Source: Alkalilimnicola ehrlichii MLHE-1 (GTDB lineage Bacteria; Pseudomonadota; Gammaproteobacteria; Nitrococcales; Halorhodospiraceae). Taken from it: a DNA stretch of 32,000 nt. The stretch spans positions 2,730,001 through 2,762,000 of the forward strand of contig NC_008340.1 of NCBI RefSeq assembly GCF_000014785.1, written 5' to 3'. A model generated the notes under the pieces. That model did no database searches and was not told the origin of the DNA. It saw only the letters and a program-made list of their open reading frames with translations. The position numbers and the translations under genes were made by a program. Shown piece by piece: positions 12,351 through 32,000 of the stretch; the first letter of the stretch is position 1, and each line of letters opens with the position of its first letter.

Positions 12351-12358
12351 CTTGCATT

Positions 12359-12850
12359 TCAGTTCAACCACCAGATGGCGCCATTGAGCACTGCGGCGAA
12401 GGCCACCCACAGCGCGTAAGGCACGAACAGGATGGCGGCCCAGCGATCCACCGGTGCGAATTGCCGGATGCAGGCCAGCAACACCAGAAAGAGCAGACCG
12501 ATCCAGACCAGCGCCGCTCCCGGCGCCTGCAGGCCGAAGAAGATCACCGACCAGCACAGGTTCATCACCAGCTGCAGCCCCCAGAGCGCCAGCACGCCCC
12601 GCCCCTGCACCCAGCCCAGCACCCGCCACAGACGCCAGCCGGCGATGGCAATGGCCAGGTAGAGCGCCGTCCAGACCGGACCGAAGAGCCAGTCCGGGGG
12701 GTTGAACGGTGGCTTGGCCAGGTCGCGATACCAATCGTCCAGGCCGGTGGCGGTCACCGCCCCACCCAGGGAGGAGACCACCAGCACCAGGAACAGGAAG
12801 GCCAGCAGCATCGGGAAGTGGTGCCGGGGATTGGTCTGCATTGGGGTCAT
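12359..12850 (-). CDS. tspO: TspO/MBR family tryptophan-rich sensory protein
   Basis: The internal ATG at 12850 gives MTPMQTNPRHHFPMLLAFLFLVLVVSSLGG. Motifs WYRDLAKPPFNPPDWLFGPVWTALYLAIAIAGWRLW and FVPYALWVAFAAVLNGAIWWLN are diagnostic TspO motifs. There are 5 TM helices in about 163 aa. Confidence 0.9.
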   Translation of the reverse strand: MTPMQTNPRHHFPMLLAFLFLVLVVSSLGGAVTATGLDDWYRDLAKPPFNPPDWLFGPVWTALYLAIAIAGWRLWRVLGWVQGRGVLALWGLQLVMNLCWSVIFFGLQAPGAALVWIGLLFLVLLACIRQFAPVDRWAAILFVPYALWVAFAAVLNGAIWWLN

Positions 12851-12892
12851 AGTCCGTTGCTTCAGGATTGCCTCGAAAATACCAGACCGGGG

Positions 12893-13506
12893 CGTGGATC
12901 GCCGCGTCGCTGCGAAAGCCGACCCGTCCCCCACCGTCATTGCGAGGGCCGCAGGCCCCGTGGTGACCCAGGGCGGTAGACTGCCACGTCGGCTTCGCCT
13001 CCTCGCAGTGACGGTGGGGGCGACCTGCCGCTTCCGGCTCAGTCAAGTTCTTCAAGAGGGCCGAAGGCTTTCCCCCGTCGTCGCGAGGGCCGAAGGCCCG
13101 TGGCGATCCAGGGCGGTAGACTGCCACGTCGGCTTCGCCTCCTCGCAGTGACGGTGGGGGCGACCTGCCGCTTCCGGCTCAGTCAAGTTCTTCAAGAGGG
13201 CCGAAGGCTTTCCCCCGTCGTCGCGAGGGCCGAAGGCCCGTGGCGATCCAGGGCGGTAGACTGCCACGTCGCTTCGCTCCTCGCAGTAACGGTGGGGGCC
13301 ACTACCACCCCGTCATCGCGAGGAGCGCAGCGACGCGGCGATCCAGACGCCGGCATGGACTGCCACGCCCCTTCGGGGCTCGCAGTGACGGTGGGGATGG
13401 GACCGCGCTCGCAGTGACGGTGGGGATGGGACCGCGCTCGCAGTGACGGCGGGGGTGGCCCGCCCCTTGGCTGCACAGTCCAGTTCTTCAAGAGCCGCGC
13501 GATGAC
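12893..13506. repeat. REP/BIME-like repeat cluster 3 (includes a perfect 140-bp tandem duplication at 12971-13250 and a 31-bp tandem at about 13378-13445)
   Basis: 12971-13110 and 13111-13250 are identical by direct reading. A diverged partial third copy follows from 13251. The same unit types as the other clusters are present. It lies between the divergent tspO and fumA. Confidence 0.95.
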
Positions 13507-13556
13507 AGCCCAAGGCCCGCCAACACCATGTTGCCACGGACAAAACCCGCCGGCTG

Positions 13557-13565
13557 TGGTATAAC
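13557..13565 (+). promoter_or_regulatory. Candidate extended -10 element (TGgTATAAC) for the fumarase gene
   Basis: TGGTATAAC lies about 59 nt upstream of the ATG at 13624. No good -35 is present at 17 bp (TTGCCA lies 23 nt upstream). Confidence 0.3.
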
Positions 13566-13623
13566 CTGCCGCGCGAACACCCGACGCACAGACGACTATA
13601 AAGACACGCCCCGGAGGACGCCC

Positions 13624-15141
13624 ATGGCTACCATCCGCCAGGATGACTTCATCCAGAGCATCGCCGATGCGCTGCAGTATATCTCCTACTACCACCCCAA
13701 GGACTTCATCGACGCCGCCCACGAGGCCTGGGAGCGGGAGGAATCGCCGGCCGCCAAGGATGCCCTGGCGCAGATCCTGATCAACTCGCGCATGTGCGCC
13801 GAGGGCCGCCGGCCCATCTGCCAGGATACCGGCATCGTCACGGTGATCCTCAAGATCGGCATGAACGTCCAGTGGGACGCCGAGATGAGTGTGGAGGACA
13901 TGGTCAACGAGGGCGTGCGCCGGGCCTACAACCTGCCCGACAACAAGCTGCGCGCCTCCATCCTGGCCGACCCGGCCGGCGAGCGGAAGAACACCGGCGA
14001 CAACACCCCGGCGGTGATCCACATGAGCCTGGTACCGGGGGACACCGTGGACGTGCAGGTGGCGGCCAAGGGGGGCGGCTCCGAGGCCAAGACCAAGTTC
14101 GCCATGCTCAACCCCTCCGACTCCATCGTCGACTGGGTACTGGAACAGGTGCCGAAGATGGGCGCCGGCTGGTGCCCGCCGGGCATCCTGGGCATCGGCA
14201 TCGGCGGTACCGCGGACAAGGCGATGCTGATGGCCAAGGAGGCCTGCATGGAGTCCATCGACATCCACGAGCTGAAGGCCCGCGGCCCACGGAACACCGC
14301 CGAGGAACTGCGTCTGGAGCTGTTCGACAAGGTCAACGAGCTGGGCATCGGCGCCCAGGGCCTGGGCGGGCTGACCACGGTGCTGGATATCAAGATCCGC
14401 GACTACCCCACCCACGCGGCCAACAAGCCCGTGGCGATGATCCCCAACTGCGCGGCCACCCGCCACGCCCACTTCGTGCTGGACGGCTCCGGGGTGGCGG
14501 ACCTGCCGGCGCCCAAGCTGGAGGATTGGCCGCAGGTGGCCCGCGAGGGCGGCGGCGACGTCAAGCGGGTCAACCTCGACGAGGTGACCACCGAGGAGGC
14601 GCGAAGCTGGAAGCCGGGTGACACCCTGCTGGTCTCCGGCACCATCCTCACCGGCCGCGATGCCGCCCACAAGCGCATGACCGACATGCTGAGCCGGGGA
14701 GAAGAGCTGCCGGTGGACCTGAAGGGCAAGTTCATCTACTACGTGGGCCCGGTGGACCCGGTGCGCGACGAGCCCGTGGGCCCGGCCGGCCCCACCACCG
14801 CCACCCGGATGGACAAGTTCACCGATCAGATGCTGGCCGAGACCGGCCTGATGGGCATGATCGGCAAGGCCGAGCGCGGCCCCGAGGCGGTGGCGGCCAT
14901 CCGTAAGCACGGCGCGGTCTACCTGATCGCCGTGGGCGGTGCCGCCTACCTGGTCTCCAAGGCCATCCGCAAGGCCCGGGTGGTGGCCTTCGAGGACCTG
15001 GGCATGGAGGCCATCCACGAATTTGAGGTGGAGGACATGCCGGTGACGGTGGCGGTGGACAGCCGTGGCGAATCGGTGCACGAAGCCGGCCCCCGCGAGT
15101 GGCAGGCCCGGATCAAGGGCATCCCCGTCACCGAGGCCTGA
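13624..15141 (+). CDS. fumA: Class I (Fe-S dependent) fumarate hydratase
   Basis: The ATG at 13624 is preceded by GGAGGA. MATIRQDDFIQSIADALQYISYYHPKDFI..., the CQDTGIV cluster-ligand motif, GGGSEAKTKF, PPGILGIGIGGTADKA, and the C-terminal beta-domain GTILTGRDAAHKRM...YYVGP. 505 aa, matching the single-polypeptide class I enzymes. Confidence 0.95.
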   Translation: MATIRQDDFIQSIADALQYISYYHPKDFIDAAHEAWEREESPAAKDALAQILINSRMCAEGRRPICQDTGIVTVILKIGMNVQWDAEMSVEDMVNEGVRRAYNLPDNKLRASILADPAGERKNTGDNTPAVIHMSLVPGDTVDVQVAAKGGGSEAKTKFAMLNPSDSIVDWVLEQVPKMGAGWCPPGILGIGIGGTADKAMLMAKEACMESIDIHELKARGPRNTAEELRLELFDKVNELGIGAQGLGGLTTVLDIKIRDYPTHAANKPVAMIPNCAATRHAHFVLDGSGVADLPAPKLEDWPQVAREGGGDVKRVNLDEVTTEEARSWKPGDTLLVSGTILTGRDAAHKRMTDMLSRGEELPVDLKGKFIYYVGPVDPVRDEPVGPAGPTTATRMDKFTDQMLAETGLMGMIGKAERGPEAVAAIRKHGAVYLIAVGGAAYLVSKAIRKARVVAFEDLGMEAIHEFEVEDMPVTVAVDSRGESVHEAGPREWQARIKGIPVTEA

Positions 15142-15146
15142 GTGCG

Positions 15147-15171
15147 TGCCGCCCGGCACGACCGGGCGGCA
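15147..15171 (+). terminator. Hairpin just after the fumarase stop (candidate terminator, weak U-tract)
   Basis: TGCCGCCCGG-cacga-CCGGGCGGCA, a perfect 10-bp stem starting 6 nt after the stop. It is followed by TCCGCCTTCC. Confidence 0.45.
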
Positions 15172-16095: not shown

Positions 16096-16290
16096 ACCGT
16101 CACCGCGAGGTTTGGAGCGCCGCGGCGATCCACACACCGGCATGGACTGCCGCGCCCCCTGCGGGGGCTCGCAGTGACGTGGTGGGGGCATTCCACCGTC
16201 ATCGCGAGGGCCGGAGGCCCGTGGCGATCCAGGGCGGTGGACTGCCGCGTCGCTTCGCTCCTCGCAGTGACGGTGGGGGCGGACTGCCGG
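16096..16290. repeat. REP/BIME-like repeat cluster 4
   Basis: GTCACCGCGAGG...GGCGATCCACACACCGGCATGGACTGCCGCGCCCCCTGCGGGGGCTCGCAGTGAC and GTCATCGCGAGGGCCGGAGGCCCGTGGCGATCCAGGGCGGTGGACTGCCGCGTCGCTTCGCTCCTCGCAGTGACGGTGGGGG. It lies between convergent genes. Confidence 0.9.
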
Positions 16291-19511: not shown

Positions 19512-19890
19512 CACCGTCATCGCGAGCCCCCCTCCCCGCTGCGCGGGCCCGAATCAACGAGGAACGGGGCACCCCCGTCATTGCCAGGGCCGAAGGCTTT
19601 CCCCCCGTCATCGCGAGGGCCGAAGGCCCGTGGCGATCCAGGGCTGTAGACTGCCGCGTCGGCTTCGCCTCCTCGCAGTGACGGTGGGGGGGTAGCCCTT
19701 CCCGCCGTGACGGTGGGGGCGCCACCCCGTCATCGCGAGGAGCGCAGCGACGTGGCGATCCACACGCCGGCATGGACTGCCGCGCCCCTTCGGGGCTCGC
19801 AGTGACGGTGGGGCGGGTCGCCGCTTGCCGTGACGGTGGGGCGGGCCGCCGGCCGCCGTGACGGTGGGGCGGGTCGCCGTGACGGAGTGG
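19512..19890. repeat. REP/BIME-like repeat cluster 5
   Basis: GTCATCGCGAGCCCCCCTCCCCGCTGCGCGGGCCCGAATCAACGAGGAACGGGGCACCCCCGTCATTGCC..., the full composite GTCATCGCGAGGGCCGAAGGCCCGTGGCGATCCAGGGCTGTAGACTGCCGCGTCGGCTTCGCCTCCTCGCAGTGACGGTGGGGG, and then 3-4 short CCGTGACGGTGGGGCGGG reiterations. Confidence 0.9.
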
Positions 19891-23611: not shown

Positions 23612-25567
23612 TCAACCCAACGCGGCCTCGGCCGCCTCCAACGCCTCCAGGGCCTCCATCCAGTCCGCCTCCAAGGCCTCCTGGCGGGCCTTGAGCACCC
23701 CCTGCCGGTGCAGCAGTTCGGTCAGGCGGTCCTTGCCCGCTGCCTCGTACAAAGCGGGCTCACCCAGGGCCCTCTCCACGTCAGCCAGCTCCCCGCTCAG
23801 TTCATCCAGCGCCTTCTCCAACTGCTCGGCCTTGCGACGCAACGGGCGAAGCTGCTCGCGTTGCCGCGCCTGGGCGCGGCGCTGGGCCTTGCGCGATTCA
23901 GCCGTGTGCGCCGGGGAGGACCCGTGCCGCGGTTCGTCGCCATCAGGCGCGGGCCCGGTCCCGGCAGAGGCGACGCCGTTGACGGCCTTCTGCGCCTCGC
24001 GCCATTCGAGGAACCACTGGCGGTAGGTCTCCAGGTCGCCGTCCAGCGGGCGGACGCGGCCCTCGGCCACCAGGTAGTACTCATCGCAGGTGGTGGTGAG
24101 CAGGTGACGGTCGTGGGAGACGAGGACCACGGCGCCTTCGTATTCCTGCAAGGCGACGGTCAGGGCGTGGCGCATCTCCAGGTCCAGGTGGTTGGTGGGC
24201 TCGTCCAACAGCAACAGGTTGGGCCGCTGCCAGACCAGCAGTGCCAGCACCAGGCGGGCCTTTTCACCACCGCTGAAGGGGGCCACGGCACGGTCCGCAT
24301 CGTCGCCGGAGAAGCCGAAACCGCCGATAAAGTTGCGCAGGGTCTGTTCCTGCGCCTTCGGGGCCAGGCGCTGCAGGTGCAGCAGCGGCGAGGCCTGGCC
24401 ATCCAGTTGCTCCAGTTGATGCTGGGCGAAGTAGCCCACGGCCAGCCCCTGACTGCCGGTGATCTGGCCCGCCTGGGGTTTCAACTCGCCGGCCAGGGCG
24501 CGGATGAAGGTGGACTTGCCGGCCCCGTTCGGTCCCAGCAGGCCCATCCGCTCCCCCGGGCGCAGCGAGAGCTGAATCCGGCGCAGGACCGGGTCACCGC
24601 CATAGCCCAAATCCACCCGGTCGAGCACCAGCAGCGGGTTGGCGGCCCGGGGCGGGTCGGGGAAGTGGAACTCGAAGGGCGCGTCCACGTGCGCCGGGGC
24701 GATGCGCTCCATCCGCTCCAGCGCCTTGATACGGCTCTGCGCCGCCTTGGCCTTGTTGGCCTGGGCGCGGAAGCGGTCGATGAATTTGTGCAGATGGGCA
24801 ATCTCCGCCTGCTGCTTCTCGTACTGGGCCTGCTGTTGCGCCAGGCGCTCGGCGCGGCGCTTTTCGAAGTCGCTGTAGCCGCCCGTATAGTGCACCAGCC
24901 GCCGGCCATCGAAGTGGACGATGCCCTGGACCACGGTGTCGAGGAAGTCGCGGTCGTGGGAGATGAGCAGCAGCGCCCCCGGGTACTGGCAGAGCCACTG
25001 CTCCAGCCAGAGCACAGCCTCCAGGTCCAGGTGGTTGGTGGGCTCGTCCAACAGCAGCAGGTCGGAGGGCTGGATGAGCGCGCGGGCCAGGTTGAGGCGC
25101 ATGCGCCAGCCGCCGGAGAAATCGCTCACCGGCCGGGCCCGCCCGGCGGCGTCAAAACCCAGCCCCTCCAGCAGGGTCTCCGCCCGGGAGGCGGCGGTGT
25201 AGCCGTCGATGGCGTCCAGGCGGGCGTGCAGTTGCCCCATGGCCTCGCCGTCGCCCGCCGCTTCCGCCTCGGCCAGCCGCGCCTGGAGTGCTCGCAGCTC
25301 CAGGTGGCCATCCAGCACGTAGTCCAGGGCGCTGCTGGCCAGCGCCGGGGTCTCCTGGACCACATGGGCGATACGCCAATCACGGGGGATGCCCACCTCG
25401 CCGGCGTCCGGGCCGATCTCGCCCTGCAGCAGGGCGAACAGGGTGCTCTTGCCGCAGCCGTTGGGACCGACCAGGCCGAGGCGCTGCCCCGGGTAGACGG
25501 TGAGACTGGCCTGGTGGAGGAGTTCCTCGGGGCCGCGGGAAAGGGTGATGTCCTTGAGGGTGATCAT
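23612..25567 (-). CDS. yheS: ABC-F family ATPase YheS (tandem ABC domains, coiled-coil C-terminal tail)
   Basis: The internal ATG at 25567 gives MITLKDITLSRG. GPNGCGKSTLF, VSDFSGGWRMRLNLARAL, LLLLDEPTNHLD, the linker RIKALERMERIAPAHVD, the second domain GPNGAGKSTFI, FSGGEKARLVLALLVWQRPNLLLLDEPTNHLD, and VSHDRHLL. It is collinear with my recollection of E. coli YheS throughout. Confidence 0.9.
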   Translation of the reverse strand: MITLKDITLSRGPEELLHQASLTVYPGQRLGLVGPNGCGKSTLFALLQGEIGPDAGEVGIPRDWRIAHVVQETPALASSALDYVLDGHLELRALQARLAEAEAAGDGEAMGQLHARLDAIDGYTAASRAETLLEGLGFDAAGRARPVSDFSGGWRMRLNLARALIQPSDLLLLDEPTNHLDLEAVLWLEQWLCQYPGALLLISHDRDFLDTVVQGIVHFDGRRLVHYTGGYSDFEKRRAERLAQQQAQYEKQQAEIAHLHKFIDRFRAQANKAKAAQSRIKALERMERIAPAHVDAPFEFHFPDPPRAANPLLVLDRVDLGYGGDPVLRRIQLSLRPGERMGLLGPNGAGKSTFIRALAGELKPQAGQITGSQGLAVGYFAQHQLEQLDGQASPLLHLQRLAPKAQEQTLRNFIGGFGFSGDDADRAVAPFSGGEKARLVLALLVWQRPNLLLLDEPTNHLDLEMRHALTVALQEYEGAVVLVSHDRHLLTTTCDEYYLVAEGRVRPLDGDLETYRQWFLEWREAQKAVNGVASAGTGPAPDGDEPRHGSSPAHTAESRKAQRRAQARQREQLRPLRRKAEQLEKALDELSGELADVERALGEPALYEAAGKDRLTELLHRQGVLKARQEALEADWMEALEALEAAEAALG

Positions 25568-25912
25568 GGCTGGGATTCTACCAGCCGATGGTGCCAAGGC
25601 GTCAGGGCGATGCCCCAGGCGGATGCGCACGCAAACCCCGTCGCGGCGACCCTGTGCCACAGCCCTTGGGGTTCACTCACGCACCAATATACGCCACCAA
25701 ACGCAGCGAACACCAAACCATTGCTGCCCCGTGCAACCCCTATATTTGGAATGCACACAATACGTCGCCACCCCCCGGAACAGGGCTGCGCAATACATTG
25801 ATTTTATGGAGGTGGCATTATCCTGGAGCAGAATGATCAGGAATAACCAGGTCCTACTAGCTCGGTCTTTTTTACCATTTCGTAACAGAAAAGACATCGT
25901 TTCTAACCACCC

Positions 25913-25928
25913 GTTACCGCACGGTAAC
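25913..25928. promoter_or_regulatory. Perfect palindrome GTTACCG-CA-CGGTAAC, a candidate upstream activator site
   Basis: 7+7 bp inverted repeat centred about 64 nt upstream of the -24 GG of the putative sigma54 promoter. A weaker TTAC-N6-GTAA sharing the half-site lies at 25872-25885. Confidence 0.3.
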
Positions 25929-25982
25929 AACGGCCCGACCGGGCGGTGCCCAAGCGACTACTTAGGCAGGGCTTTTTCTGTT

Positions 25983-25998
25983 TGGCATTGCATTTGCT
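25983..25998 (+). promoter_or_regulatory. Putative sigma54 (-24/-12) promoter TGGCAT-N5-TTGCT
   Basis: The sequence TGGCATtgcatTTGCTT has GG and GC separated exactly as in the consensus TGGCAC-N5-TTGCW. It lies about 46 nt upstream of the ATG at 26044, which has an AGGAG Shine-Dalgarno at 26031-26035. It sits in an unusually AT-rich 380-bp intergenic region. Confidence 0.6.
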
Positions 25999-26043
25999 TA
26001 AACCCCTCACCGAAAACCGCCGATTCGGCTAGGAGATCCGGTA

Positions 26044-27153
26044 ATGAGTAGCGATAGCACAGTGATTCCAAGAGATACCAATAGCGGCTGGGCCGCGGAA
26101 CGGGCTCGCCGCGGCGGCAGGCAGCGCCACTCCAAGTGGTGGCTGCTCGCCGTCATCGTCTCAGTGACGCTAAGCCTTCCGCTCAGCGGCTACCTGGCGC
26201 CGGCGGCCGCCAGCCAAGGCGCGGATCTGGCGGGGTTCTATCCTGAGAGCCAGATCAGCTACAGCTGGTCGTCGCTACGCGAAGGGCCCCTCACGATCTT
26301 CGCCCTACTGGCCATCGCCGGGTCGATACTCGTCTTTCTCGCGTTCCATCTGTTCGCCGGCAAGGTAAGGATTGACGGCGGCCGGTCCGGCACCACCGTG
26401 CCGAGGTGGAGCAGGTTCGAGCGCCTTCTGCACTGGCTGCTCGCCGGCTCGTTCATCGTGCTGGCGATCACCGGCCTATCGCTGTTCTTCGGTCGGTACG
26501 CGCTGATGCCCTTGCTGGGGGAGAGGGGTTTCTCCACCTACGCCTCGGGGGCGATCTGGATTCATGAAACCATCGGGCTGGTATTCGTGGCCCTCCTGGT
26601 CGCCGCCATCCTGCAGTGGATAAAGGGCAACCTTTTCCGGAGCTACGACTGGCAATGGTTCAAGCAGGGCGGCGGCTATATCGGCGATCGCAACACCCAC
26701 CCGCCGGCAGGGAAGGCGAACGGCGGCGAAAAGCTCTACTTCTGGCTCGGCATCGTTAGCATGGGGTCGGTCACAGCGATCACCGGTCTCGTACTCTACT
26801 TCACCACTTGGACCGGATCGGAGGGCTTGGTCGCCTGGTCGTTGATTTTCCATGTGCTCGGCGCCGCAGGATTCATCGCCCTGGCGATCGGCCATGTCTA
26901 CCTGGGTGCCATCGGCAATGAAGGGACGCTGGAGGGCATGGTGAGCGGCCGGGTGGACTGCAACTGGGCGAAACAGCACCACAACATCTGGTACGAAGAG
27001 ATCCTCCAGGACGGCGTGCAGCCGGAGCCCGCGAGCACGTCTGCGGCAGACGCCTCCGTGCCGAGCGCAAAGAGTTCGAAGTCCACGGCAACCGACGCCG
27101 CGTCATTGACGATTCGGACCGACGATGCGCCGGCGCGTCGCCCTTTGTCTTGA
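26044..27153 (+). CDS. FdnI-type (formate-dehydrogenase-gamma-like, PF01292-type) di-haem cytochrome b membrane subunit with an N-terminal extension
   Basis: The core aligns with my recollection of E. coli FdnI. RFERLLHWLLAGSFIVLAITGL, IWIHETIGLVF, GKANGGEKLYFWLGIVSMGSVTAITGLVLYF, and IFHVLGAAGFIALAIGHVYLGAIGNEGTLEGMVSGRVDCNWAKQHHNIWYEEI. All four haem-ligand His positions are present. There is also a predicted signal peptide (WWLLAVIVSVTLSLPLSGYLAPAAA/SQ), one additional TM helix, and a Ser/Ala/Thr-rich tail of about 50 aa. Confidence 0.85.
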   Translation: MSSDSTVIPRDTNSGWAAERARRGGRQRHSKWWLLAVIVSVTLSLPLSGYLAPAAASQGADLAGFYPESQISYSWSSLREGPLTIFALLAIAGSILVFLAFHLFAGKVRIDGGRSGTTVPRWSRFERLLHWLLAGSFIVLAITGLSLFFGRYALMPLLGERGFSTYASGAIWIHETIGLVFVALLVAAILQWIKGNLFRSYDWQWFKQGGGYIGDRNTHPPAGKANGGEKLYFWLGIVSMGSVTAITGLVLYFTTWTGSEGLVAWSLIFHVLGAAGFIALAIGHVYLGAIGNEGTLEGMVSGRVDCNWAKQHHNIWYEEILQDGVQPEPASTSAADASVPSAKSSKSTATDAASLTIRTDDAPARRPLS

Positions 27154-27203
27154 GCCGAGCGCCCCGGGAAGTCCCCTGTGGCCGTAGGCTATTGAATGAG
27201 TTT

Positions 27204-27412
27204 GTTGCGAGCCCCCTCCCCGCTGCGCGGGCCCGAATCAACGAGGAACGGGGTACCCCTGTCATCGCGAGGGCCGAAGGCCCGTGGCGATCCAGGGCGG
27301 TAGACTGCCGCGTCGGCTTCGCCTCCTCGCAGTGACGGTGGGGGTGGGGCCCCGCTCGCAGTGACGGTGGGGGCAACCTTCCGCTTCCGGCACAGTCCAG
27401 TTCTTCAAGAGG
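27204..27412. repeat. REP/BIME-like repeat cluster 6, inside the molybdoenzyme operon
   Basis: GCGAGCCCCCTCCCCGCTGCGCGGGCCCGAATCAACGAGGAACGGGGTACCCCTGTCATCGCGAGGGCCGAAGGCCCGTGGCGATCCAGGGCGGTAGACTGCCGCGTCGGCTTCGCCTCCTCGCAGTGACGGTGGGGG..., followed by the CCGCTTCCGGCACAGTCCAGTTCTTCAAGAGG module, which ends at the Shine-Dalgarno of the next gene. Confidence 0.9.
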
Positions 27413-27423
27413 AGAGAGCACGA

Positions 27424-29904
27424 ATGAATGTACTGCAGAATAAGCTCAACAGGAGACGATTCCTGCAGGCGTCCGGGGCCGCCGGTGCGGCGGGTGTGGC
27501 AGGCCTGAATGCGATCCCAGGTATATCGACGCTGGAGGCCAGCCCTGGGACCCGGGCGCGGGCCACGTCGGATACCGTCGTCACCAAGAGCGTCTGCCAG
27601 CAGTGCTCCACTCGCTGCGGGCTCGACGTCTATACGACCAACGGCCGGGTGCATGCCATCTACGGCAATCCAGACGCTCCGTTATCCAACGGCAAGCTCT
27701 GCCCCAAAGGCCACCTGGGCCCATACATCCTTTACGATGCCGACCGCTTCAAGGGGCCGATGAAGCGCACCAATCCCAAGAAGGGCCGCAACGAAGACCC
27801 GGGCTTCGTGCCGATCTCCTGGGACGAGGCCCTGGATACGGTCGCTGCCCGCTTGACGGCGCTGCGCGAGCGGAACGAGTCGCATCGCTTCGTTGTGGCG
27901 TACGGCCGCGGCTGGGGCCCCGCCGACGCCGGCCTGTTCGGCACCTGGGGCCGGTTGTACGGCTCCTCGAGCATCGGCATCGGCCATTCGAGCATCTGCG
28001 CCGATGGCTCCAAGAAGGTCAAGCGCGCCATGGACGGCAATGACTCATACAACTCCTACGACTACGAGAATTGCAATTGCCTGCTGATCTTCGGCGCCGG
28101 CTTCCTCGAGTCTTTCCGGCCTTACAATGCCAACATGCAGATGTGGGGCAGGATGCGCAGCAAGGGCACCCGCATCACCATGGTCGATGTGCGCAACTCT
28201 GTGACCGCCGCCGCTGCCGATCGCAAGCTGATCGTGTCTCCCGGCACTGACGGTGCGATCGCTTTGGCCATCGCCCACGTCATCCTCACCGAAGGCCTGT
28301 GGGACAGGCCCTTCGTTGGCGACTTCACCCGGTCCCGACTGCGATTCGAGACCGGCAAGCCGATCGATCCCGACACCTTCTCGGAAAACTGGGTGAAGGA
28401 CCTTCCGGCTTGGTGGAACACAACGCTGAAGGACGCCACTCCTGCCTGGGCCGAGGGCATCACCGGCGTGCCGGCGGAGAAGATCGTCGCCACGGCGAAG
28501 GAGTTCGGCAGCACCCGGCCGGCCATAGCGGTGTTCGAGCGCGGTCCCACGGCGCACACCAACGGCGCCTACAACGGCATGGCCATTCACGCCCTGAACG
28601 CGCTGGTCGGCTCAATGTTCGCCAAGGGTGGCCTGAGCTACCAGATGGGCTCGTCCGCCGGCAGCCTGCCGATCAACCCCGATGACTACATGGACGACTA
28701 CGCCCGTGAGATGGAGGGCAAATACCCGCGCATCGATATGGCGCGGACCGACGCCTGGCCGATGACCTCCAACATGATCCAGGACATCGCCAAGAACCAT
28801 CTGACCGGCTCACCGTACAAGATGGACACGATCATGTTCTATACGGTGGGTCCGATCTATTCCGGCCCCGACTGCACGGTGTGGGAAGAGGCACTCCAGG
28901 ACGTGTTCGTGATCGACACCTCGCCCTCGCCGCAGGAGAGTGCGCAGTTCGCCGACCTGATCCTGCCCGATCACACCTACCTGGAACGACTCGAAGTCGC
29001 CAACACTTACCCGTTCCAGGGCTATCCGATGTCGATGATCCGCGAGCCGGCGGTAAAACCGCTTTACGACACGATGCAGTTCGGCAACATCATGATCGAA
29101 CTTGGCAAGCGGATGCCCGGCCCGATGGCCGATTACTACCAGCAGGTGGGCAGTGTCGAGAACGTGGTGGCCGCATTCGCCGCGGGCTTTGAAAACGACC
29201 CCGGCGATAACGGCGTTAATGACCTGGCCAGCTTCAAAGAGAAGGGTGTCTGGTACAAGACCCCCTATTTGTGGCGCCAAATCGACGGCGAGTTCTACGA
29301 ATGGGACGGCCACCGCTACAGCATTCGGATGAGCGAGGACGATGTTAAGGCGAAACTGCTGAAGACCCCATCCGGGAAGTTCGAGTTCCAGCCCGCTTGG
29401 TTCACCAACGAGAAACACGCCGCGCATATCCAGAAACATCTCGGTATTCCGCGCGATATGATCGGCTTCCCCCATTACGTCGAACCGCAATACCAGGGCG
29501 GCGGCGACCTGCACCTGATCAGCCCGAAGCTACCGCTCTCCGCTGAGGGGCGCTCCGCCAACCTGCCGCATACCCACGCGGTATGGCAACCCACGCAGGG
29601 TGGCACCGACACGGTGTACATGGAGATTCACCCACAGGCCGCCGCCGCCCGCGGCATCAAGGACCGCGACCGGGTCCGGATAAGCTCCTCGGTGGGCGCC
29701 ATCGAGTGCTTCGCCAGCGTCTCTGGCGGGGTGCCGAAGGACACGGTAGTGCTGCCGCTGGCCCACGGCCACTGGGGCTCCGGCCGTTGGGCCCAGAACA
29801 AGGGGGTTTCCGGCAGTGTCAACGAAGTCATTCCCAACGTCGTCGAGCCGGTTTCCGGGCTCGTGGCCTTCAGCGCCGCCAAGGTCTTCGTTGAGAAGGT
29901 TTGA
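27424..29904 (+). CDS. Tat-exported molybdopterin (Mo/W-bisPGD) oxidoreductase catalytic subunit, Psr/Phs/Arr-like clade with Cys metal ligand. Substrate unknown.
   Basis: The ATG at 27424 follows AGGAGA. Twin-arginine signal NRRRFLQASGAAGAAGVAG. FS0 motif C-x2-C-x3-C-x27-C (CQQCSTRCGLDV...NGKLCPKGH). RTNPKKGRNEDPGFVPISWDEAL. Probable Mo-ligand region IGHSSICADGSKK. SPGTDGAIALAIAHVIL. 826 aa with no in-frame stop, so there is no selenocysteine. Confidence 0.9.
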   Translation: MNVLQNKLNRRRFLQASGAAGAAGVAGLNAIPGISTLEASPGTRARATSDTVVTKSVCQQCSTRCGLDVYTTNGRVHAIYGNPDAPLSNGKLCPKGHLGPYILYDADRFKGPMKRTNPKKGRNEDPGFVPISWDEALDTVAARLTALRERNESHRFVVAYGRGWGPADAGLFGTWGRLYGSSSIGIGHSSICADGSKKVKRAMDGNDSYNSYDYENCNCLLIFGAGFLESFRPYNANMQMWGRMRSKGTRITMVDVRNSVTAAAADRKLIVSPGTDGAIALAIAHVILTEGLWDRPFVGDFTRSRLRFETGKPIDPDTFSENWVKDLPAWWNTTLKDATPAWAEGITGVPAEKIVATAKEFGSTRPAIAVFERGPTAHTNGAYNGMAIHALNALVGSMFAKGGLSYQMGSSAGSLPINPDDYMDDYAREMEGKYPRIDMARTDAWPMTSNMIQDIAKNHLTGSPYKMDTIMFYTVGPIYSGPDCTVWEEALQDVFVIDTSPSPQESAQFADLILPDHTYLERLEVANTYPFQGYPMSMIREPAVKPLYDTMQFGNIMIELGKRMPGPMADYYQQVGSVENVVAAFAAGFENDPGDNGVNDLASFKEKGVWYKTPYLWRQIDGEFYEWDGHRYSIRMSEDDVKAKLLKTPSGKFEFQPAWFTNEKHAAHIQKHLGIPRDMIGFPHYVEPQYQGGGDLHLISPKLPLSAEGRSANLPHTHAVWQPTQGGTDTVYMEIHPQAAAARGIKDRDRVRISSSVGAIECFASVSGGVPKDTVVLPLAHGHWGSGRWAQNKGVSGSVNEVIPNVVEPVSGLVAFSAAKVFVEKV

Positions 29905-29928
29905 TCGAATTAGCAGGAGTAAATTGCG

Positions 29929-30675
29929 ATGACTAAGTGGGGCATGGTTATAGACTTGGAGAAATGCACCGGCTGCCAGGCCTGCACGATCGCCTGTGGC
30001 ATGGAGAACAACCTTCTGCCGGGCGAGCACTGGCAGGACGTTCTCTATTACTCGGAAGGCCAACTACCGGACCACGAATTGAAGTGGCTGCCGAGGCCCT
30101 GCATGCAATGTGAAGATGCCACCTGCGTCACGGTCTGCCCGACGGGGGCAACCTATAAGGATGCGGAGGCGGGCGGCGTGGTTTTCATCGACTGGGACCG
30201 CTGCATCGGCTGCAAATATTGCATCGTGGCCTGCCCCTATGGTGTGCGCTTCTCCACGGCCGAGCTCAAAACGCAGTCGCCGGACATGCGCGAGGTCTTT
30301 CCCAGCGGCGACGGCCACACCTGGAATCCGCCCTGGAGGGCGCCGGATTCCCGGGACAACCCCAAACGCGGGATCGGCATCCCGCCGAAGAATGTGGTGA
30401 GCAAGTGCACCTTTTGTCATCACCGCACCTCCACCGCCCCCGCCGACACGGCGGATCTCGATCCGAGCAACCCGGACCTGCGCGAGCATACGCCGGCCTG
30501 TGTGGTGACCTGCGCCCCCGGGGCCCGTTACTTTGGCGACCTCAACAACCCGAACAGCCAGGTGTCCAAGCTCATCGCAGAGCACAACGGGCAACCGGTG
30601 CTGAGTCACCTGAAGAACAAGCCGCAGGTGTATTACCTCGGCCGCAAGCGCGCTTCGCCGTCCCGGAGCAGTTGA
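29929..30675 (+). CDS. Four-cluster [4Fe-4S] ferredoxin electron-transfer subunit (PsrB/DmsB/FdnH-like), no TM anchor
   Basis: AGGAG Shine-Dalgarno. Four Cys groups: CTGCQACTIAC, CMQCEDATCVTVCP, CIGCKYCIVACP, and CTFCHHR...ACVVTCAP. There is an insertion of about 40 aa before group IV. The C-terminus (GRKRASPSRSS) is hydrophilic. Confidence 0.9.
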   Translation: MTKWGMVIDLEKCTGCQACTIACGMENNLLPGEHWQDVLYYSEGQLPDHELKWLPRPCMQCEDATCVTVCPTGATYKDAEAGGVVFIDWDRCIGCKYCIVACPYGVRFSTAELKTQSPDMREVFPSGDGHTWNPPWRAPDSRDNPKRGIGIPPKNVVSKCTFCHHRTSTAPADTADLDPSNPDLREHTPACVVTCAPGARYFGDLNNPNSQVSKLIAEHNGQPVLSHLKNKPQVYYLGRKRASPSRSS

Positions 30676-30676
30676 G

Positions 30677-31510
30677 GTGGGGGTGGATGATACGTCGGGC
30701 CTGTCGTTGCAGGGCGAACTGCTCGCCTGCCTTGGGCAGGCGATGCAACCTCCGCGCTCGGATGCGTTCTTCAACGCGTTGCGGGATGGGTTGGTGGACG
30801 ATATCGCCGACCTATGCGGGGCACTCGGGGCGGAGTCCGTAGCCGCCGATCTGCCACCGTTGCGTTGCGCGTTGGGCGAGGTGGAGGATCGGGAGTCGTT
30901 GCTATTGGCCTACAGCGTGTTGTTTCTCGCGCCCCCGCCCAAGGTGCGCCTCAACCTGGTCCGATTGATGGATGGGGCTTCCAGTGGTGCCGGTCTCGGC
31001 TACCTGGACGAAATGCTGGCCAGGCACCAGCTCAACCTCCGCTCCGAACACCGGGAACTGCCGGATCACCTCACGGTGGTTCTGGAGTTGGCCGCCTGCC
31101 TGATCAGCCGGGGTGAGCAAGGCAATGACCAGGCAGAACGAGACGCCAAGGCCTTGCTGCAACAAATGGTGGCACCGGCAGCCCGACACCTTGCCGAAAC
31201 GGCGGCCGACGTGGAGCAGGCACATGGCCTGCCCAAGGTCTACTCACGGCTGCTGGCGCTGATCGGCACGACCGGCCAGGACCCGGATGGCTGTCTGCTT
31301 CCCGGCACCCGTTCGGTTGCCGGGGAGGCCACCGGTGCGAGCAAATCCGCGCCGGACACCGGCCCAGCCATGGCCGCCTGCGCGCGCTGCGGGACACCTT
31401 TCGTGAGCCTGCGCGACCAGGCGGTGCTGATCGCGCATTTACAGGAGGCGGGAGCGCCGGCCGATCATCTGCACGTCTGTCCCGACTGCCGCACGGGGCC
31501 CGGCGGCTGA
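30677..31510 (+). CDS. TorD/DmsD-family redox-enzyme maturation chaperone with a C-terminal CxxC...CxxC zinc-ribbon-like extension
   Basis: A GTG start 1 nt after the upstream stop (another GTG lies at 30683). LLLAYSVLFLAPPP...YLDEMLARHQLNL....ELPDHLTVVLELAACL is the TorD-family core. The tail is CARCGTPFVSLRDQAVLIAHLQEAGAPADHLHVCPDCR. Confidence 0.75.
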   Translation: MGVDDTSGLSLQGELLACLGQAMQPPRSDAFFNALRDGLVDDIADLCGALGAESVAADLPPLRCALGEVEDRESLLLAYSVLFLAPPPKVRLNLVRLMDGASSGAGLGYLDEMLARHQLNLRSEHRELPDHLTVVLELAACLISRGEQGNDQAERDAKALLQQMVAPAARHLAETAADVEQAHGLPKVYSRLLALIGTTGQDPDGCLLPGTRSVAGEATGASKSAPDTGPAMAACARCGTPFVSLRDQAVLIAHLQEAGAPADHLHVCPDCRTGPGG

Positions 31511-31583
31511 GGGCTTGGCGCGGTGCAGGGCGACACCCCTGGATGCTTCCAGGGAGGCTTCCAGCCCCGGCCAGGGGTGCGGG

Positions 31584-32000
31584 TCACCGGGACTCCACCG
31601 GCAGGCAGCCCTGTGCGGCCAGGCGCAGGCAGGCGTCCACCACCTCCGGGTCGTAGAGCCTGCCGCGCTTGGCGCGCAGTTCGTCCAGCGCCGCGGCCAG
31701 CCCCAGGGCGGGCCGGTAGGGGCGGTGGGAGGAGATGGCCTCGACCACGTCGGCTACGGCCAGAATGCGTGCTTCCAGCAGGATGGCCTCCCCCCGCAGG
31801 CCGTCCGGGTAACCGGAGCCGTCCAGCCGCTCGTGGTGTTGGCGAATGATCTCCGCCACCGGCCAGGGGAACTCGATCCCCTTGATGATCTCGTAGCCGA
31901 CGGCCGGATGGGTCTTGATCATCTCGAACTCGAGGTCACTCAGCCGCCCCGGGCGCGAGAGGATCTCCACGGGGATGGCGACCTTGCCGATGTCGTGGAT
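31584..32000 (-). CDS. HD-GYP domain protein, C-terminal part (continues beyond the right edge)
   Basis: The reverse complement of the window end reads IHDIGKVAIPVEILSRPGRLSDLEFEMIKTHPAVGYEIIKGIEFPWPVAEIIRQHHERLDGSGYPDGL....I.LEARILAVADVVEA. This gives the HDxGK, HHERxDGxGYP and ADxxxA motifs of HD-GYP phosphodiesterases. Confidence 0.85.
   Translation of the reverse strand: MHDIGKVAIPVEILSRPGRLSDLEFEMIKTHPAVGYEIIKGIEFPWPVAEIIRQHHERLDGSGYPDGLRGEAILLEARILAVADVVEAISSHRPYRPALGLAAALDELRAKRGRLYDPEVVDACLRLAAQGCLPVESR

What the first reader, a model, noticed from the sequence alone, without database searches (positions are those of the whole stretch)
25661..31510. Lower-GC, probably acquired gamma-alpha-beta-chaperone molybdoenzyme module with an unusual subunit combination and unknown substrate
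Four co-directional genes encode an FdnI-type di-haem cytochrome b, a Tat-exported Cys-ligand Mo-bisPGD subunit of the Psr/Phs/Arr type, a four-cluster ferredoxin, and a TorD-like chaperone.

Known Psr, Ttr, Arr/Arx and Sre-type enzymes normally use an NrfD/PsrC-type membrane anchor. FdnI-type cytochromes normally pair with 1000-aa formate dehydrogenase alpha subunits and a TM-anchored beta subunit. Here the beta subunit has no TM helix, the cytochrome gene comes first, and the alpha subunit is short (826 aa) and PsrA-like. Only PhsABC is broadly comparable, with a different gene order and no chaperone.

Codon usage and G+C are visibly different from the flanks. Sampled lines in this block are about 55-60% G+C, against 70-80% in ybbP and yheS. 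The block is preceded by a 380-bp AT-rich spacer. Together these suggest horizontal acquisition.

In a probable sulfur/arsenic-cycling lineage the substrate could be thiosulfate, polysulfide, tetrathionate, arsenate/arsenite or a selenium oxyanion. The sequence alone does not decide.
Basis: partly seen in the sequence, partly recalled or inferred. Interest (0 to 1): 0.75.

Follow-up and report, generated by a model that had tools for sequence, protein, structure and literature searches.

The report
Arsenite oxidase with swapped membrane anchor
This is a second, divergent copy of the anaerobic arsenite oxidase (Arx) of the soda-lake bacterium Alkalilimnicola ehrlichii. Its usual membrane partners have been replaced by a formate-dehydrogenase-type cytochrome b, but it keeps the arsenite-oxidase promoter, making it a one-off natural rewiring of how arsenic oxidation connects to the respiratory chain.

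Summary
The four genes are real and are those of A. ehrlichii MLHE-1 (ABI57765-57768; alpha = Mlg_2426 by numbering).

The "unknown substrate" is largely resolved:
- The 826-aa alpha subunit falls inside the ArxA (anaerobic arsenite oxidase) clade. ArxA plus query was monophyletic in 100/100 bootstraps, with the query nested in 81/100.
- It keeps the Arx GRGWG and HSSIC..K signatures.
- Beta is ArxB-like, at about 62% identity.
- The chaperone carries the ArxD-specific C-terminal Cys motif.

The unusual part holds up. In 160 other ArxA loci, NrfD-type arxC is always present where the contig allows (132/132), arxB2 almost always (120/122), and a cytochrome b never (0/160). Here both arxC and arxB2 are absent. 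A six-helix, di-haem FdnI-fold cytochrome b sits in the arxB2 position. Its nearest relatives (35-49% identity) are gamma subunits of soda-lake formate dehydrogenases.

The "AT-rich spacer" is a canonical arx promoter. It holds two GTTACC-N4-GGTAAC sites 42 bp apart, with a sigma-54 element 70 bp downstream. The same layout occurs in 30/34 arx loci with arxR nearby.

The block is a clean 6.0-kb insertion relative to a close relative. GC3 is not anomalous.

I infer an arsenite-induced, cytochrome-b-coupled and possibly electrogenic arsenite:quinone oxidoreductase. This is a new variant of a known kind, and its activity is untested.

The parts
25587..31594 (.). 6.0-kb island lying between the HD-GYP response-regulator gene and the ABC-F (yheS-like) gene. 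It is absent from a close relative.
   Evidence: blastn of L090 against the window. L090 3798-4203 matches window 32000-31595 at 83% identity. L090 4232-8063 matches window 25586-21763 at 80%. Only 28 bp lie between these two segments in L090. The L090 gene order is HK, RR, ABC-F, CHAD, ParA.
25871..25886 (+). Distal upstream activator site, TTTACCATTTCGTAAC. It has 2 mismatches to GTTACC-N4-GGTAAC.
   Evidence: One of only two matches with 2 or fewer mismatches in the 32-kb window, against 0.35 expected. It lies 42 bp from the proximal site, which is the modal spacing in arx promoters.
25913..25928 (+). Proximal upstream activator site, GTTACCGCACGGTAAC. It is a perfect 6-4-6 palindrome and the putative ArxR operator.
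   Evidence: The motif, with 1 or fewer mismatches, lies upstream of arxB2 in 30/34 arx loci with arxR nearby and in 2/32 without. Fisher p = 3e-12.
25983..25998 (+). Sigma-54 (-24/-12) promoter element, TGGCATTGCATTTGCT. It lies 46 bp upstream of the cytochrome b ATG.
   Evidence: It is the only match to TGGCAY-N5-TTGCW on either strand of the window, against 0.04 expected. No sigma-70-like site was found in 25400-32000. It starts 70 bp downstream of the proximal activator site, as in Thioalkalivibrio arx promoters.
26044..27153 (+). Six-helix, di-haem, FdnI-type cytochrome b of formate-dehydrogenase gamma origin. It occupies the position that arxB2 holds in canonical operons. It is ABI57765.1.
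   Evidence: - PF01292 and TIGR01583 hits.
- His130, His174, His270 and His284 align with FdnI His18, His57, His155 and His169, and are invariant in 37 homologues.
- The AF2 model has pLDDT 83. Its best PDB match is 1kqf_C, with TM 0.83 and rmsd 2.5 A.
- Six hydrophobic helices are predicted.
- The nearest relatives sit in formate dehydrogenase operons.
27207..27412 (.). Copy of a dispersed native repeat that fills the gap between the cytochrome b and alpha genes.
   Evidence: It is 92-98% identical to at least 8 other places in the window. The 19-nt core occurs 22 times in the window, against 0.03 expected. It accounts for 206 of the 270 bp between the genes. It also covers the upstream GTG at 27361, which supports the ATG at 27424 as the start.
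27424..29904 (+). ArxA-clade Mo-bisPGD catalytic subunit, Tat-exported, 826 aa. It is ABI57766.1, which is Mlg_2426 by numbering.
   Evidence: -.
- Identity to 82 ArxA sequences is 57-64%.
- ArxA plus query is monophyletic in 100/100 bootstraps.
- The CxxCxxxC...C, YGRGWG and GHSSICADGSKK motifs are kept.
- Identity to the MLHE-1 protein was confirmed by exact look-up.
29929..30675 (+). ArxB-type four-[4Fe-4S] ferredoxin, 248 aa, with no transmembrane helix. It is ABI57767.1.
   Evidence: Median identity is 62% to ArxB and 27-38% to formate-dehydrogenase beta. It has 16 Cys. It deviates at 7 of 115 conserved ArxB columns, where canonical ArxB sequences deviate at 4 at most. Three of the seven changes cluster at residues 223-229.
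30677..31510 (+). ArxD-type chaperone of the NarJ/TorD fold. It has the C-terminal motif CxxC...CPDCR. It is ABI57768.1, Mlg_2428. NCBI places its start at 30683.
   Evidence: PF02613 hit. Identity to ArxD is 30-35% over the full length. The C-terminal Cys motif is shared with 47 of 67 ArxD ORFs.

Best explanation
The block is the Mlg_2425-2428 operon of Alkalilimnicola ehrlichii MLHE-1. It encodes a second, divergent Arx-type (anaerobic) arsenite oxidase with a replaced membrane module.

Shown:
- The catalytic, ferredoxin and chaperone subunits are ArxA, ArxB and ArxD homologues.
- The two other canonical components, the polyferredoxin ArxB2 and the haem-less NrfD-type quinone subunit ArxC, are missing without remnants.
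- A six-helix, di-haem, FdnI-fold cytochrome b sits immediately after the promoter, where arxB2 normally sits. Its relatives are the gamma subunits of soda-lake formate dehydrogenases.
- The promoter has the canonical arx layout of two GTTACC-N4-GGTAAC sites followed by a sigma-54 element.
- The whole unit is a 6.0-kb insertion relative to a close relative.

Inferred:
- ArxD' matures ArxA'.
- The ArxA'B' dimer is exported by Tat and docks on the periplasmic face of the cytochrome.
- Arsenite is oxidised to arsenate at the Mo centre.
- Electrons pass through five FeS clusters to haem bP and then haem bC. They reduce ubiquinone at the cytoplasmic face, as in Fdn-N. The enzyme would then be one arm of a charge-separating redox loop, unlike the NrfD-coupled canonical Arx.
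- Transcription is activated by ArxR with sigma-54 in response to arsenite sensed by ArxX and ArxS.
For: Alpha subunit:
- ArrA (6cz7) is the best solved structure, at 2.4e-110.
- The NCBIfam profile is the same as for a canonical ArxA. The ArrA model scores 436 bits here and 447 bits for the A. mobile ArxA. Both are far below the cutoff of 1600, and no ArxA-specific model matched either protein.
- Identity to 82 ArxA sequences is 57-64%, within the ArxA-to-ArxA range of 55-98%.
- In the NJ tree, ArxA plus query is monophyletic in 100/100 bootstraps. ArxA excluding the query is monophyletic in only 19/100.
- GRGWG and HSSIC..K are kept, whereas ArrA-like representatives have RGRY. The query deviates at 14 of 276 conserved ArxA columns, where canonical sequences reach up to 16.

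Beta and chaperone.

Cytochrome b.

Uniqueness of the architecture:
- Genome loci: NrfD in 70/70, arxB2 in 64/66, cytochrome b in 0/80.
- Metagenome loci: NrfD in 62/62, arxB2 in 56/56, cytochrome b in 0/80.
- No arxB2 or NrfD remnants are found in the island.

Promoter:
-.
- The published canonical MLHE-1 arx promoter is RpoN-type, and ArxR is an AtoC-type activator (PMC5908839).

Island.
Against: - No activity or expression data for this operon could be retrieved. Zargar 2010 is not held.
- Published genetics say that arxA (Mlg_0216) is essential for anaerobic arsenite oxidation in MLHE-1 (PMC6549141). This paralogue therefore does not substitute under those conditions.
- From memory only, Zargar 2010 reported that mlg_2426 was not arsenite-induced in the way arxA was.
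- Only the proximal activator site is perfect.
- No arxXSR genes lie next to the operon.
- At pH 7 the As(V)/As(III) couple (+60 mV) to ubiquinone (+100 mV) offers too little driving force for electron transfer against the membrane potential (values from PMC2500031). The electrogenic direction is plausible only at the alkaline pH of the habitat.
- The tree is neighbour-joining only.
- A 206-bp repeat separates the cytochrome gene from arxA', so co-transcription is assumed.
Confidence: 0.62

Rival explanations
1. The proteins are the same but the enzyme runs in the opposite direction. It would be a quinol:arsenate reductase in which the FdnI-type cytochrome works as a reverse redox loop. Ubiquinol would be oxidised at the cytoplasmic face, and the membrane potential would push electrons outward. 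This would let a ubiquinone organism reduce arsenate at a cost in proton-motive force, as proposed for PhsABC and thiosulfate.
For: - Arx is reversible in vitro (Richey 2009, as cited in PMC6620896).
- The only well-known Psr/Arr-superfamily enzyme with a PF01292 cytochrome anchor is PhsABC. Its reaction is reported to be driven by proton-motive force (Stoffels 2012, title seen).
- A. ehrlichii uses ubiquinone, so arsenate reduction would need such assistance (PMC2500031).
Against: - MLHE-1 is reported to be unable to respire arsenate.
- The alpha subunit carries the Arx signature GRGWG, not the Arr signature RGRY.
- The promoter is the arx type associated with arsenite sensing.
- An energy-consuming arsenate reductase has no obvious benefit where cytoplasmic ArsC already exists.
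Confidence: 0.12
2. It is a neofunctionalised ArxA paralogue acting on a different substrate, while still using the Arx scaffold. Candidates are antimonite, thioarsenite or thioarsenate, selenite, or a sulfur compound.
For: - It is a second copy in a genome whose canonical arxA is essential for arsenite oxidation.
- The sequence is relatively divergent. Alpha deviates at 14 conserved columns, including P182S and N183S just before the Cys-ligand loop. Beta deviates more than any canonical ArxB.
- As-handling molybdoenzymes are known to accept Sb (PMC11521347 introduction).
Against: - The residues that distinguish Arx from Arr, and the Cys/Lys loop, are unchanged.
- The number of alpha deviations is within the range of canonical ArxA sequences.
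- The arx-type operator implies control by the arsenite sensor.
Confidence: 0.16
3. One reading: a Psr/Phs-type sulfur-compound reductase, or an enzyme of undetermined specificity, that happens to use a cytochrome b.
For: PhsA is the second-best NCBIfam hit, at 247 bits. PsrA (2vpw) is the second-best solved structure. JGI names some homologues 'thiosulfate/polysulfide reductase chain A'.
Against: - The PhsA score is far below the cutoff of 694, and it is about the same as for a genuine ArxA, which scores 282 bits.
- The homologues with those JGI names lie in the ArxA-level hit list, at 58-60% identity.
- ArxA plus query is monophyletic in 100/100 bootstraps, with ArrA-like and other representatives outside.
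- The chaperone and the promoter are arx-specific.
Confidence: 0.04
4. It is a non-functional evolutionary leftover. The module would be an accidental junction of a formate-dehydrogenase gamma gene with a truncated arx operon, and would no longer assemble.
For: - It is found only in A. ehrlichii.
- A repeat element is inserted between the cytochrome gene and arxA'.
- The cytochrome lacks about 30 residues of a periplasmic loop that is nearly invariant in formate-dehydrogenase gammas.
- It does not complement an arxA mutant.
Against: - All four ORFs are intact.
- All cofactor ligands are present: 4 His, 16 plus 4 Cys, the Mo-ligand Cys and the Tat motif.
- GC3 is adapted to the host.
- The cluster is kept in two A. 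ehrlichii genomes, of 3.28 and 3.19 Mb.
- The promoter elements are intact.
Confidence: 0.06

Closest known systems
Canonical Arx arsenite oxidase, arxB2ABCD with divergent arxXSR (A. ehrlichii Mlg_0216 cluster, Ectothiorhodospira, Azoarcus CIB and others)
   Same: - The catalytic subunit is in the same clade at 57-64% identity, with the same GRGWG and HSSIC..K signatures.
- The ferredoxin is ArxB-like at about 62% identity.
- The ArxD chaperone has the same C-terminal Cys motif.
- The promoter has the same layout of two GTTACC-N4-GGTAAC sites followed by a sigma-54 element.
   Different: - There is no NrfD-type ArxC and no ArxB2 polyferredoxin. A di-haem cytochrome b takes their place, as the first gene of the operon.
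- No adjacent arxXSR genes.
- It lies on a separate 6-kb island.
PhsABC thiosulfate reductase (Salmonella)
   Same: It is a three-subunit enzyme of the Psr/Arr superfamily with a Cys-ligand Mo subunit. Its membrane anchor is a PF01292-type b cytochrome rather than NrfD.
   Different: - The alpha subunit is not PhsA: 247 bits against a cutoff of 694, and it lies in a different clade.
- The gene order is A-B-C with no chaperone.
- The cytochrome here scores only with formate-dehydrogenase gamma and hydrogenase cytochrome b models, and has two extra N-terminal helices.
Formate dehydrogenase-N (FdnGHI), and the related soda-lake and proteobacterial formate dehydrogenases with an anchorless beta of about 196 aa and a six-helix gamma of about 360 aa (loci L006-L008)
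   Same: - The gamma subunit has the same fold as FdnI, with TM 0.83.
- The four haem His ligands and Asn110 of the cytoplasmic-side quinone site are conserved; FdnI Gln113 is Glu229 here.
- The N-terminal two-helix extension and the pairing with an anchorless beta are both shared with the long-gamma class.
   Different: - The alpha and beta subunits are not formate-dehydrogenase proteins.
- The cytochrome is only 35-49% identical to these gammas.
- It lacks a conserved periplasmic loop of about 30 residues.
- The gene comes first in the operon rather than last.
ArrAB(C) respiratory arsenate reductase (Shewanella ANA-3, PDB 6cz7)
   Same: It is the closest solved structure, at 2.4e-110, with the same domain order, Cys ligand and substrate chemistry.
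   Different: - Identity to an ArrA-like representative is about 33%.
- The RGRY motif is replaced by GRGWG.
- The ArrA model scores 436 bits against a cutoff of 1600.
- The membrane partner differs, being CymA or ArrC in Arr systems.

Membership tests
Arx (anaerobic arsenite oxidase) | Catalytic subunit belongs to the ArxA clade of the DMSO-reductase family | tested here: met
   NJ tree of 82 ArxA sequences, the query and 19 outgroup representatives. ArxA plus query was monophyletic in 100/100 bootstraps, with the query nested in 81/100. Identity is 57-64%.
Arx (anaerobic arsenite oxidase) | Arx-type active-site signature: GRGWG instead of the Arr RGRY, plus the Cys-ligand loop H-S/A-S-x-C-x4-K | tested here: met
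   The query has YGRGWG and GHSSICADGSKK. All ArxA sequences shown share GRGWG, while ArrA-like representatives have RGRY. That this motif is the accepted Arx/Arr discriminator is recalled from the literature and was not checked here.
Arx (anaerobic arsenite oxidase) | ArxB four-cluster ferredoxin encoded directly downstream of arxA | tested here: met
   62% median identity to ArxB, with 16 Cys.
Arx (anaerobic arsenite oxidase) | ArxC, an NrfD-type membrane quinone subunit (arxABC order reported conserved in all genomes, PMC6549141) | tested here: not met
   No NrfD homologue or remnant lies in 25500-31700. It is present in 132/132 comparison loci that have room for it.
Arx (anaerobic arsenite oxidase) | ArxB2 polyferredoxin encoded upstream of arxA | tested here: not met
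   The only tblastn matches are to the ferredoxin motifs of beta. It is present in 120/122 comparison loci.
Arx (anaerobic arsenite oxidase) | ArxD chaperone | tested here: met
   PF02613 hit. Identity to ArxD is 30-35% over the full length. The C-terminal CxxC...CPxCR motif is shared.
Arx (anaerobic arsenite oxidase) | Regulation by ArxXSR through a sigma-54 promoter | tested here: inconclusive
   The promoter and operator layout matches arx loci. However, arxXSR is not adjacent, binding and induction are untested, and the operator assignment is itself a comparative inference.
Arx (anaerobic arsenite oxidase) | Arsenite oxidase activity | not testable with these tools
   Needs biochemistry or genetics.
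Formate dehydrogenase-N type (FdnGHI) | FdnI-type di-haem cytochrome b gamma subunit | tested here: met
   TIGR01583 scores 157 bits against a cutoff of 115.85. The four His ligands align. The fold matches 1kqf_C with TM 0.83.
Formate dehydrogenase-N type (FdnGHI) | Formate dehydrogenase alpha subunit of about 1000 aa, with Sec or Cys ligand | tested here: not met
   Formate-dehydrogenase alpha models score 84-153 bits against cutoffs of 666-1400. The alpha subunit is ArxA-clade.
PhsABC thiosulfate reductase | PhsA catalytic subunit | tested here: not met
   NF012032 scores 247 bits against a cutoff of 694. A canonical ArxA scores 282 bits on the same model.
PhsABC thiosulfate reductase | PF01292 cytochrome b anchor instead of NrfD | tested here: met
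   PF01292 hit at 4.6e-29. Specific homology to PhsC was not tested because no PhsC sequence was in hand.
ArrAB respiratory arsenate reductase | ArrA equivalog score and RGRY motif | tested here: not met
   NF041714 scores 436 bits against a cutoff of 1600. The motif is GRGWG.

The most novel reading that the evidence does not exclude
This would be the first Arx/Arr-family enzyme that conserves energy by itself. It would be an electrogenic arsenite:ubiquinone oxidoreductase. A recruited FdnI-type di-haem cytochrome carries electrons from periplasmic arsenite across the membrane to a cytoplasmic-side quinone site, forming a redox-loop arm.

The arrangement would be feasible because the As(V)/As(III) potential falls steeply at the pH of about 10 found in soda lakes. 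The enzyme would be co-induced with the canonical Arx through the same ArxR operator.
Probability: 0.3. Interest if true: 0.8.

Novelty: new variant of a known kind. Interest (0 to 1): 0.6.

Why it matters
How Arx connects to the quinone pool is unsettled, and so are the roles of ArxC and ArxB2. This operon is a natural experiment. One di-haem cytochrome b replaces both proteins, while the catalytic dimer, the chaperone and the promoter are kept.

If the enzyme is active, several things follow:
- It would show that the membrane modules of complex iron-sulfur molybdoenzymes can be exchanged between formate and arsenic metabolism.
- It would offer a direct test of whether arsenite oxidation can be made charge-separating.
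- It would mean MLHE-1, the model organism for Arx, has two arsenite oxidases.

The analysis also yields a well-supported candidate ArxR operator, GTTACC-N4-GGTAAC, usually present as a pair. It can be used to annotate arx regulons and to build arsenite biosensors.

Tried and rejected
- Rfam scan of the whole window gave no match.
- tblastn for remnants of arxB2 or arxC in the island found none. The only hits were ferredoxin motifs in beta.
- The sigma-70 promoter scan found none. Terminator-like sites were at chance level.
- RNA folding of the gap between cytochrome b and alpha gave z = -0.06, so no special structure. The gap is a dispersed repeat instead.
- Composition as evidence of transfer was rejected, because GC3 is within the native range.
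- The neighbouring Tll0287-type kinase and HD-GYP regulator were rejected as dedicated regulators. They sit next to the ABC-F gene in L090, which lacks the island.
- Literature searches for Mlg_2426 and Mlg_0216 returned nothing relevant. Zargar 2010 and Stoffels 2012 are not held.
- The genome-contig scan did not return A. ehrlichii itself. The canonical MLHE-1 arx locus could therefore not be fetched, and the A. mobile locus L001 was used instead.
- The antimony-oxidase paper (NaoABC) turned out to describe a NapA-related enzyme, not an Arx relative.
- Multimer modelling of alpha, beta and gamma is not possible with the single-chain tool.


Full report
**Observation**

The four co-directional ORFs are present as described.
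- Cytochrome b, 26044-27153, 369 aa.
- Alpha subunit, 27424-29904, 826 aa.
- Beta subunit, 29929-30675, 248 aa.
- Chaperone, 30677-31510, 277 aa.

Pfam and NCBIfam confirm a PF01292 cytochrome b, with the formate-dehydrogenase gamma model TIGR01583 scoring above its cutoff. They also confirm a Tat-signal Mo-bisPGD subunit, a multi-cluster ferredoxin and a NarJ/TorD-family chaperone.

Exact-sequence look-up identifies the proteins as ABI57765-ABI57768 of Alkalilimnicola ehrlichii MLHE-1. The last is named Mlg_2428, so the alpha subunit is Mlg_2426 by consecutive numbering. A second A. ehrlichii genome, CP184336.1, carries the same cluster.

**Composition**

- The block is 63.9% G+C and the rest of the window is 69.1%. 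The upstream spacer is 52%.
- GC3 of the four genes is 0.78-0.84. This overlaps native genes such as 2130-6473, at 0.82-0.83.
- The deficit lies in first codon positions, so it reflects amino-acid composition rather than foreign codon usage.
Composition alone does not show acquisition.

**What the alpha subunit is**

- The best solved relative is ArrA (6cz7), at 2.4e-110. PsrA is next.
- All 120 best database hits other than A. ehrlichii's own protein are 56-63% identical.
- Two of those hits were examined in their genomic context. Alkalispirillum mobile has arxXSR divergent from arxB2-A-B-C(NrfD)-D. A gammaproteobacterial MAG has A-B-NrfD-D.
- A canonical ArxA gives the same NCBIfam profile as the query. 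The ArrA model scores 447 against 436 bits, and the PhsA model 282 against 247 bits. All of these are far below the cutoffs.
- A genome scan returned 80 ArxA loci.
- A search of 1.84 billion 50%-identity cluster representatives gave outgroups at 31-49% identity. These include ArrA-like proteins, one of which (P0252) scores 1178 bits on the ArrA model.
- Over 822 trimmed columns, the query is 57-64% identical to ArxA sequences. ArxA sequences are 55-98% identical to each other.
- In a neighbour-joining tree with 100 bootstraps, ArxA plus query is monophyletic in 100. ArxA excluding the query is monophyletic in 19, so the query is nested in 81. In the best tree it sits beside a betaproteobacterial group with 71% support.
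- The FS0 cysteines, the GRGWG motif (RGRY in ArrA-like proteins) and the GHSSIC..K loop are all kept.
- The query departs from 14 of 276 columns that are at least 95% conserved in ArxA. In a leave-one-out test, canonical members depart from up to 16.
- The alpha subunit is therefore an ArxA, not a Psr/Phs-type enzyme of open specificity.

**Beta and chaperone**

- Beta is 62% identical (median) to ArxB and only 27-38% to formate-dehydrogenase beta subunits. It has all 16 cluster cysteines and no hydrophobic helix, like every ArxB.
- Beta is nevertheless the most deviant ArxB in the set. It has 7 changes at 115 conserved columns, where canonical members have at most 4. Three of the changes cluster at residues 223-229. 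I read this, as inference, as adaptation to a new membrane partner.
- The chaperone aligns with ArxD over its full length at 30-35% identity. It shares the C-terminal CxxC...DHL..CPDCR motif found in 47 of 67 ArxD ORFs.

**The cytochrome**

- The nearest relatives outside A. ehrlichii are 35-49% identical.
- All three that were examined sit last in genuine formate dehydrogenase operons. These have an alpha of 959-997 aa, a beta of 195-196 aa and a gamma of 353-368 aa. One of the three (L008) comes from the same soda-lake Ectothiorhodospiraceae MAG that also has a canonical arx locus (L077).
- Those beta subunits have no transmembrane helix, and those gamma subunits have six hydrophobic helices, as here. 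An anchorless beta on a long gamma is therefore the native state of the donor class, not an anomaly.
- His130, His174, His270 and His284 align with the FdnI haem ligands His18, His57, His155 and His169. They are invariant in 37 homologues.
- An AlphaFold2 model with mean pLDDT 83 matches FdnI (1kqf_C) with TM-score 0.83 and rmsd 2.5 A. No other chain reaches E below 0.001.
- The query lacks about 30 residues of a periplasmic loop between helices 1 and 2. That loop is nearly invariant in the formate-dehydrogenase gammas.

**How unusual the combination is**

| Comparison set | NrfD gene downstream, where the contig allows | arxB2 present | Cytochrome b homologue |
|---|---|---|---|
| 80 genome loci | 70/70 | 64/66 | 0/80 |
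| 80 metagenome loci | 62/62 | 56/56 | 0/80 |

- This agrees with the published statement that arxABC order is conserved in all genomes surveyed (PMC6549141).
- In the window there is no trace of arxB2 or arxC.
- The cytochrome gene stands where arxB2 normally stands, and the chaperone gene follows beta directly.

**The spacer is a promoter**

- TGGCATTGCATTTGCT at 25983-25998 is the only match to the sigma-54 pattern TGGCAY-N5-TTGCW in the window, on either strand. The chance expectation is 0.04. No sigma-70-like site is found.
- Seventy base pairs upstream is the perfect palindrome GTTACCGCACGGTAAC at 25913. Forty-two base pairs further upstream is TTTACCATTTCGTAAC at 25871. These are the only two matches with 2 or fewer mismatches in 32 kb, against 0.35 expected.
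- The A. mobile arx promoter has the same motif twice, 43 bp apart and 80 bp before its sigma-54 element.
- Across the genome loci, the motif with 1 or fewer mismatches lies upstream of arxB2 in 30 of 34 loci that have arxR nearby, and in 2 of 32 that do not. Fisher p = 3e-12. The sites usually occur as a pair 41-45 bp apart, with the sigma-54 element 58-137 bp downstream.
- ArxR is an AtoC-type sigma-54 activator, and an RpoN promoter has been proposed for the canonical MLHE-1 arx operon (PMC5908839). Regulation by ArxRS has not been shown experimentally (PMC6683785).
- I infer that GTTACC-N4-GGTAAC is the ArxR operator and that this operon belongs to the arx regulon.

**Acquisition**

- A metagenomic contig from a close relative (ABC-F protein 89% identical, DNA 80-83% identical) has the same flanking genes. 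The response-regulator and ABC-F genes there are 28 bp apart.
- The window has 25587-31594 inserted at that point. This supports gain in the A. ehrlichii lineage, or loss in the relative.
- Gain is favoured because neither the alpha subunit nor the cytochrome has any close relative elsewhere. In addition, the alpha subunit does not group with the Ectothiorhodospiraceae ArxA sequences.
- Residence in this genome is not recent. GC3 is host-like. A native dispersed repeat, 92-98% identical to at least eight other copies in the window, fills 206 of the 270 bp between the cytochrome and alpha genes.

**Mechanism (inferred)**

- ArxD' matures ArxA'. The ArxA'B' dimer is exported by Tat and docks on the cytochrome. 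Arsenite is oxidised at the Mo centre.
- Electrons flow through the FeS chain to haem bP and then haem bC. They reduce quinone at the cytoplasmic face, as established for Fdn-N.
- The enzyme would then separate charge, unlike an NrfD-coupled enzyme.
- At pH 7 the driving force from As(V)/As(III) (+60 mV) to ubiquinone (+100 mV) is insufficient (values in PMC2500031).
- The arsenic couple falls by roughly 90-120 mV per pH unit. This is established electrochemistry and my own estimate. The loop therefore becomes plausible at the pH of about 10 found in the habitat.
- The reverse reading is the main mechanistic rival: a quinol:arsenate reductase assisted by proton-motive force, by analogy with PhsABC.

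**Caveats**

- Published genetics make arxA (Mlg_0216) essential for anaerobic arsenite oxidation in MLHE-1. This operon therefore does not compensate under those conditions.
- I could not retrieve the one paper that, to my recollection, measured mlg_2426 transcripts.
- The tree is distance-based.
- Co-transcription across the repeat, ArxR binding, assembly with the cytochrome and substrate specificity are all untested.

**Novelty**

- The locus has been in a public genome since 2006, and its alpha subunit has been noted as a second arrA-like gene. That last point is from memory.
- I found no description of four things: its placement inside ArxA, the replacement of both ArxC and ArxB2 by a formate-dehydrogenase-type cytochrome, its arx-type promoter, or its island structure.
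- Module exchange among complex iron-sulfur molybdoenzymes is a known theme. I therefore rate this a new variant of a known kind and score its interest at 0.6.

Noticed in passing
window 10423-10571, 11762-12275, 12934-13494, 16168-16280, 19528-19879, 27207-27412: A dispersed repeat family with the 19-nt core CTCGCAGTGACGGTGGGGG occurs 22 times in the window, against 0.03 expected. Copies often come in pairs 29 bp apart. It also forms tandem arrays with 61-, 140- and 29-bp units at 12083-12249, 12934-13299 and 13378-13458. The long ORFs listed at 11907-13127 and 13192-15159 have abnormal GC3 (0.62-0.67), and at least the first overlaps these arrays, so they may not be genes.
   Followed up: partly
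L001 6505-6563; upstream of arxB2 in L012, L015, L016, L019, L031, L032, L034, L037, L039 and others: GTTACC-N4-GGTAAC, usually as two copies 41-45 bp apart upstream of a sigma-54 element, is conserved in arx promoters of Alpha-, Beta- and Gammaproteobacteria that carry arxXSR. It is missing where arxR is not adjacent, as in the Halomonas and Marinospirillum type of locus. It is a better-supported candidate ArxR operator than the 'gtaacaattcaagc' proposed in PMC5908839.
   Followed up: partly
L006 6788-6985; L007 6552-6755 and 6806-6982; L008 6793-6984: The formate dehydrogenase operons that hold the nearest cytochrome relatives carry one or two small ORFs of 58-67 aa between beta and gamma. 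These have lipoprotein-like signal sequences (for example LSACG) and end in a conserved D-R. No counterpart was looked for in the window.
   Followed up: no
L001 6751-8004 (ArxB2): The one ArxB2 sequence read closely has only ferredoxin-type domains and no twin-arginine motif near its start. If it is cytoplasmic, the canonical Arx could span the membrane through ArxC. Its simultaneous loss with ArxC in the window operon fits the idea that the two act together.
   Followed up: no
L041 and L070 (Rhodospirillales MAGs): These are the only two ArxA loci with at least 1.5 kb of upstream DNA and no arxB2 homologue. Their contigs end soon after arxA, so the rest of the architecture is unknown.
   Followed up: no
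window 31584-32000 (minus strand) and beyond; L003 14161-17489: Next to the island are an HD-GYP response regulator and a histidine kinase with a Tll0287-like (haem-PAS-like) sensor domain. The pair is conserved next to the ABC-F gene in the relative that lacks the island, so it is probably unrelated to the island.
   Followed up: partly
(genome-contig scan): The scan returned no A. ehrlichii locus, even though the query contains one of the two search peptides (GKLCPKGH). The species appears to be absent from, or masked in, that collection.
   Followed up: no
P0004, P0016, P0018, P0074 and others; P0241: A subgroup of mostly betaproteobacterial ArxA proteins is 931-942 aa long (the cluster representative P0241 is 903 aa). 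In P0241 the extra length is an Ala/Pro-rich insertion after about residue 310. This matches the 'unique inserted sequence' reported for Sulfuricella (PMC6549141).
   Followed up: no
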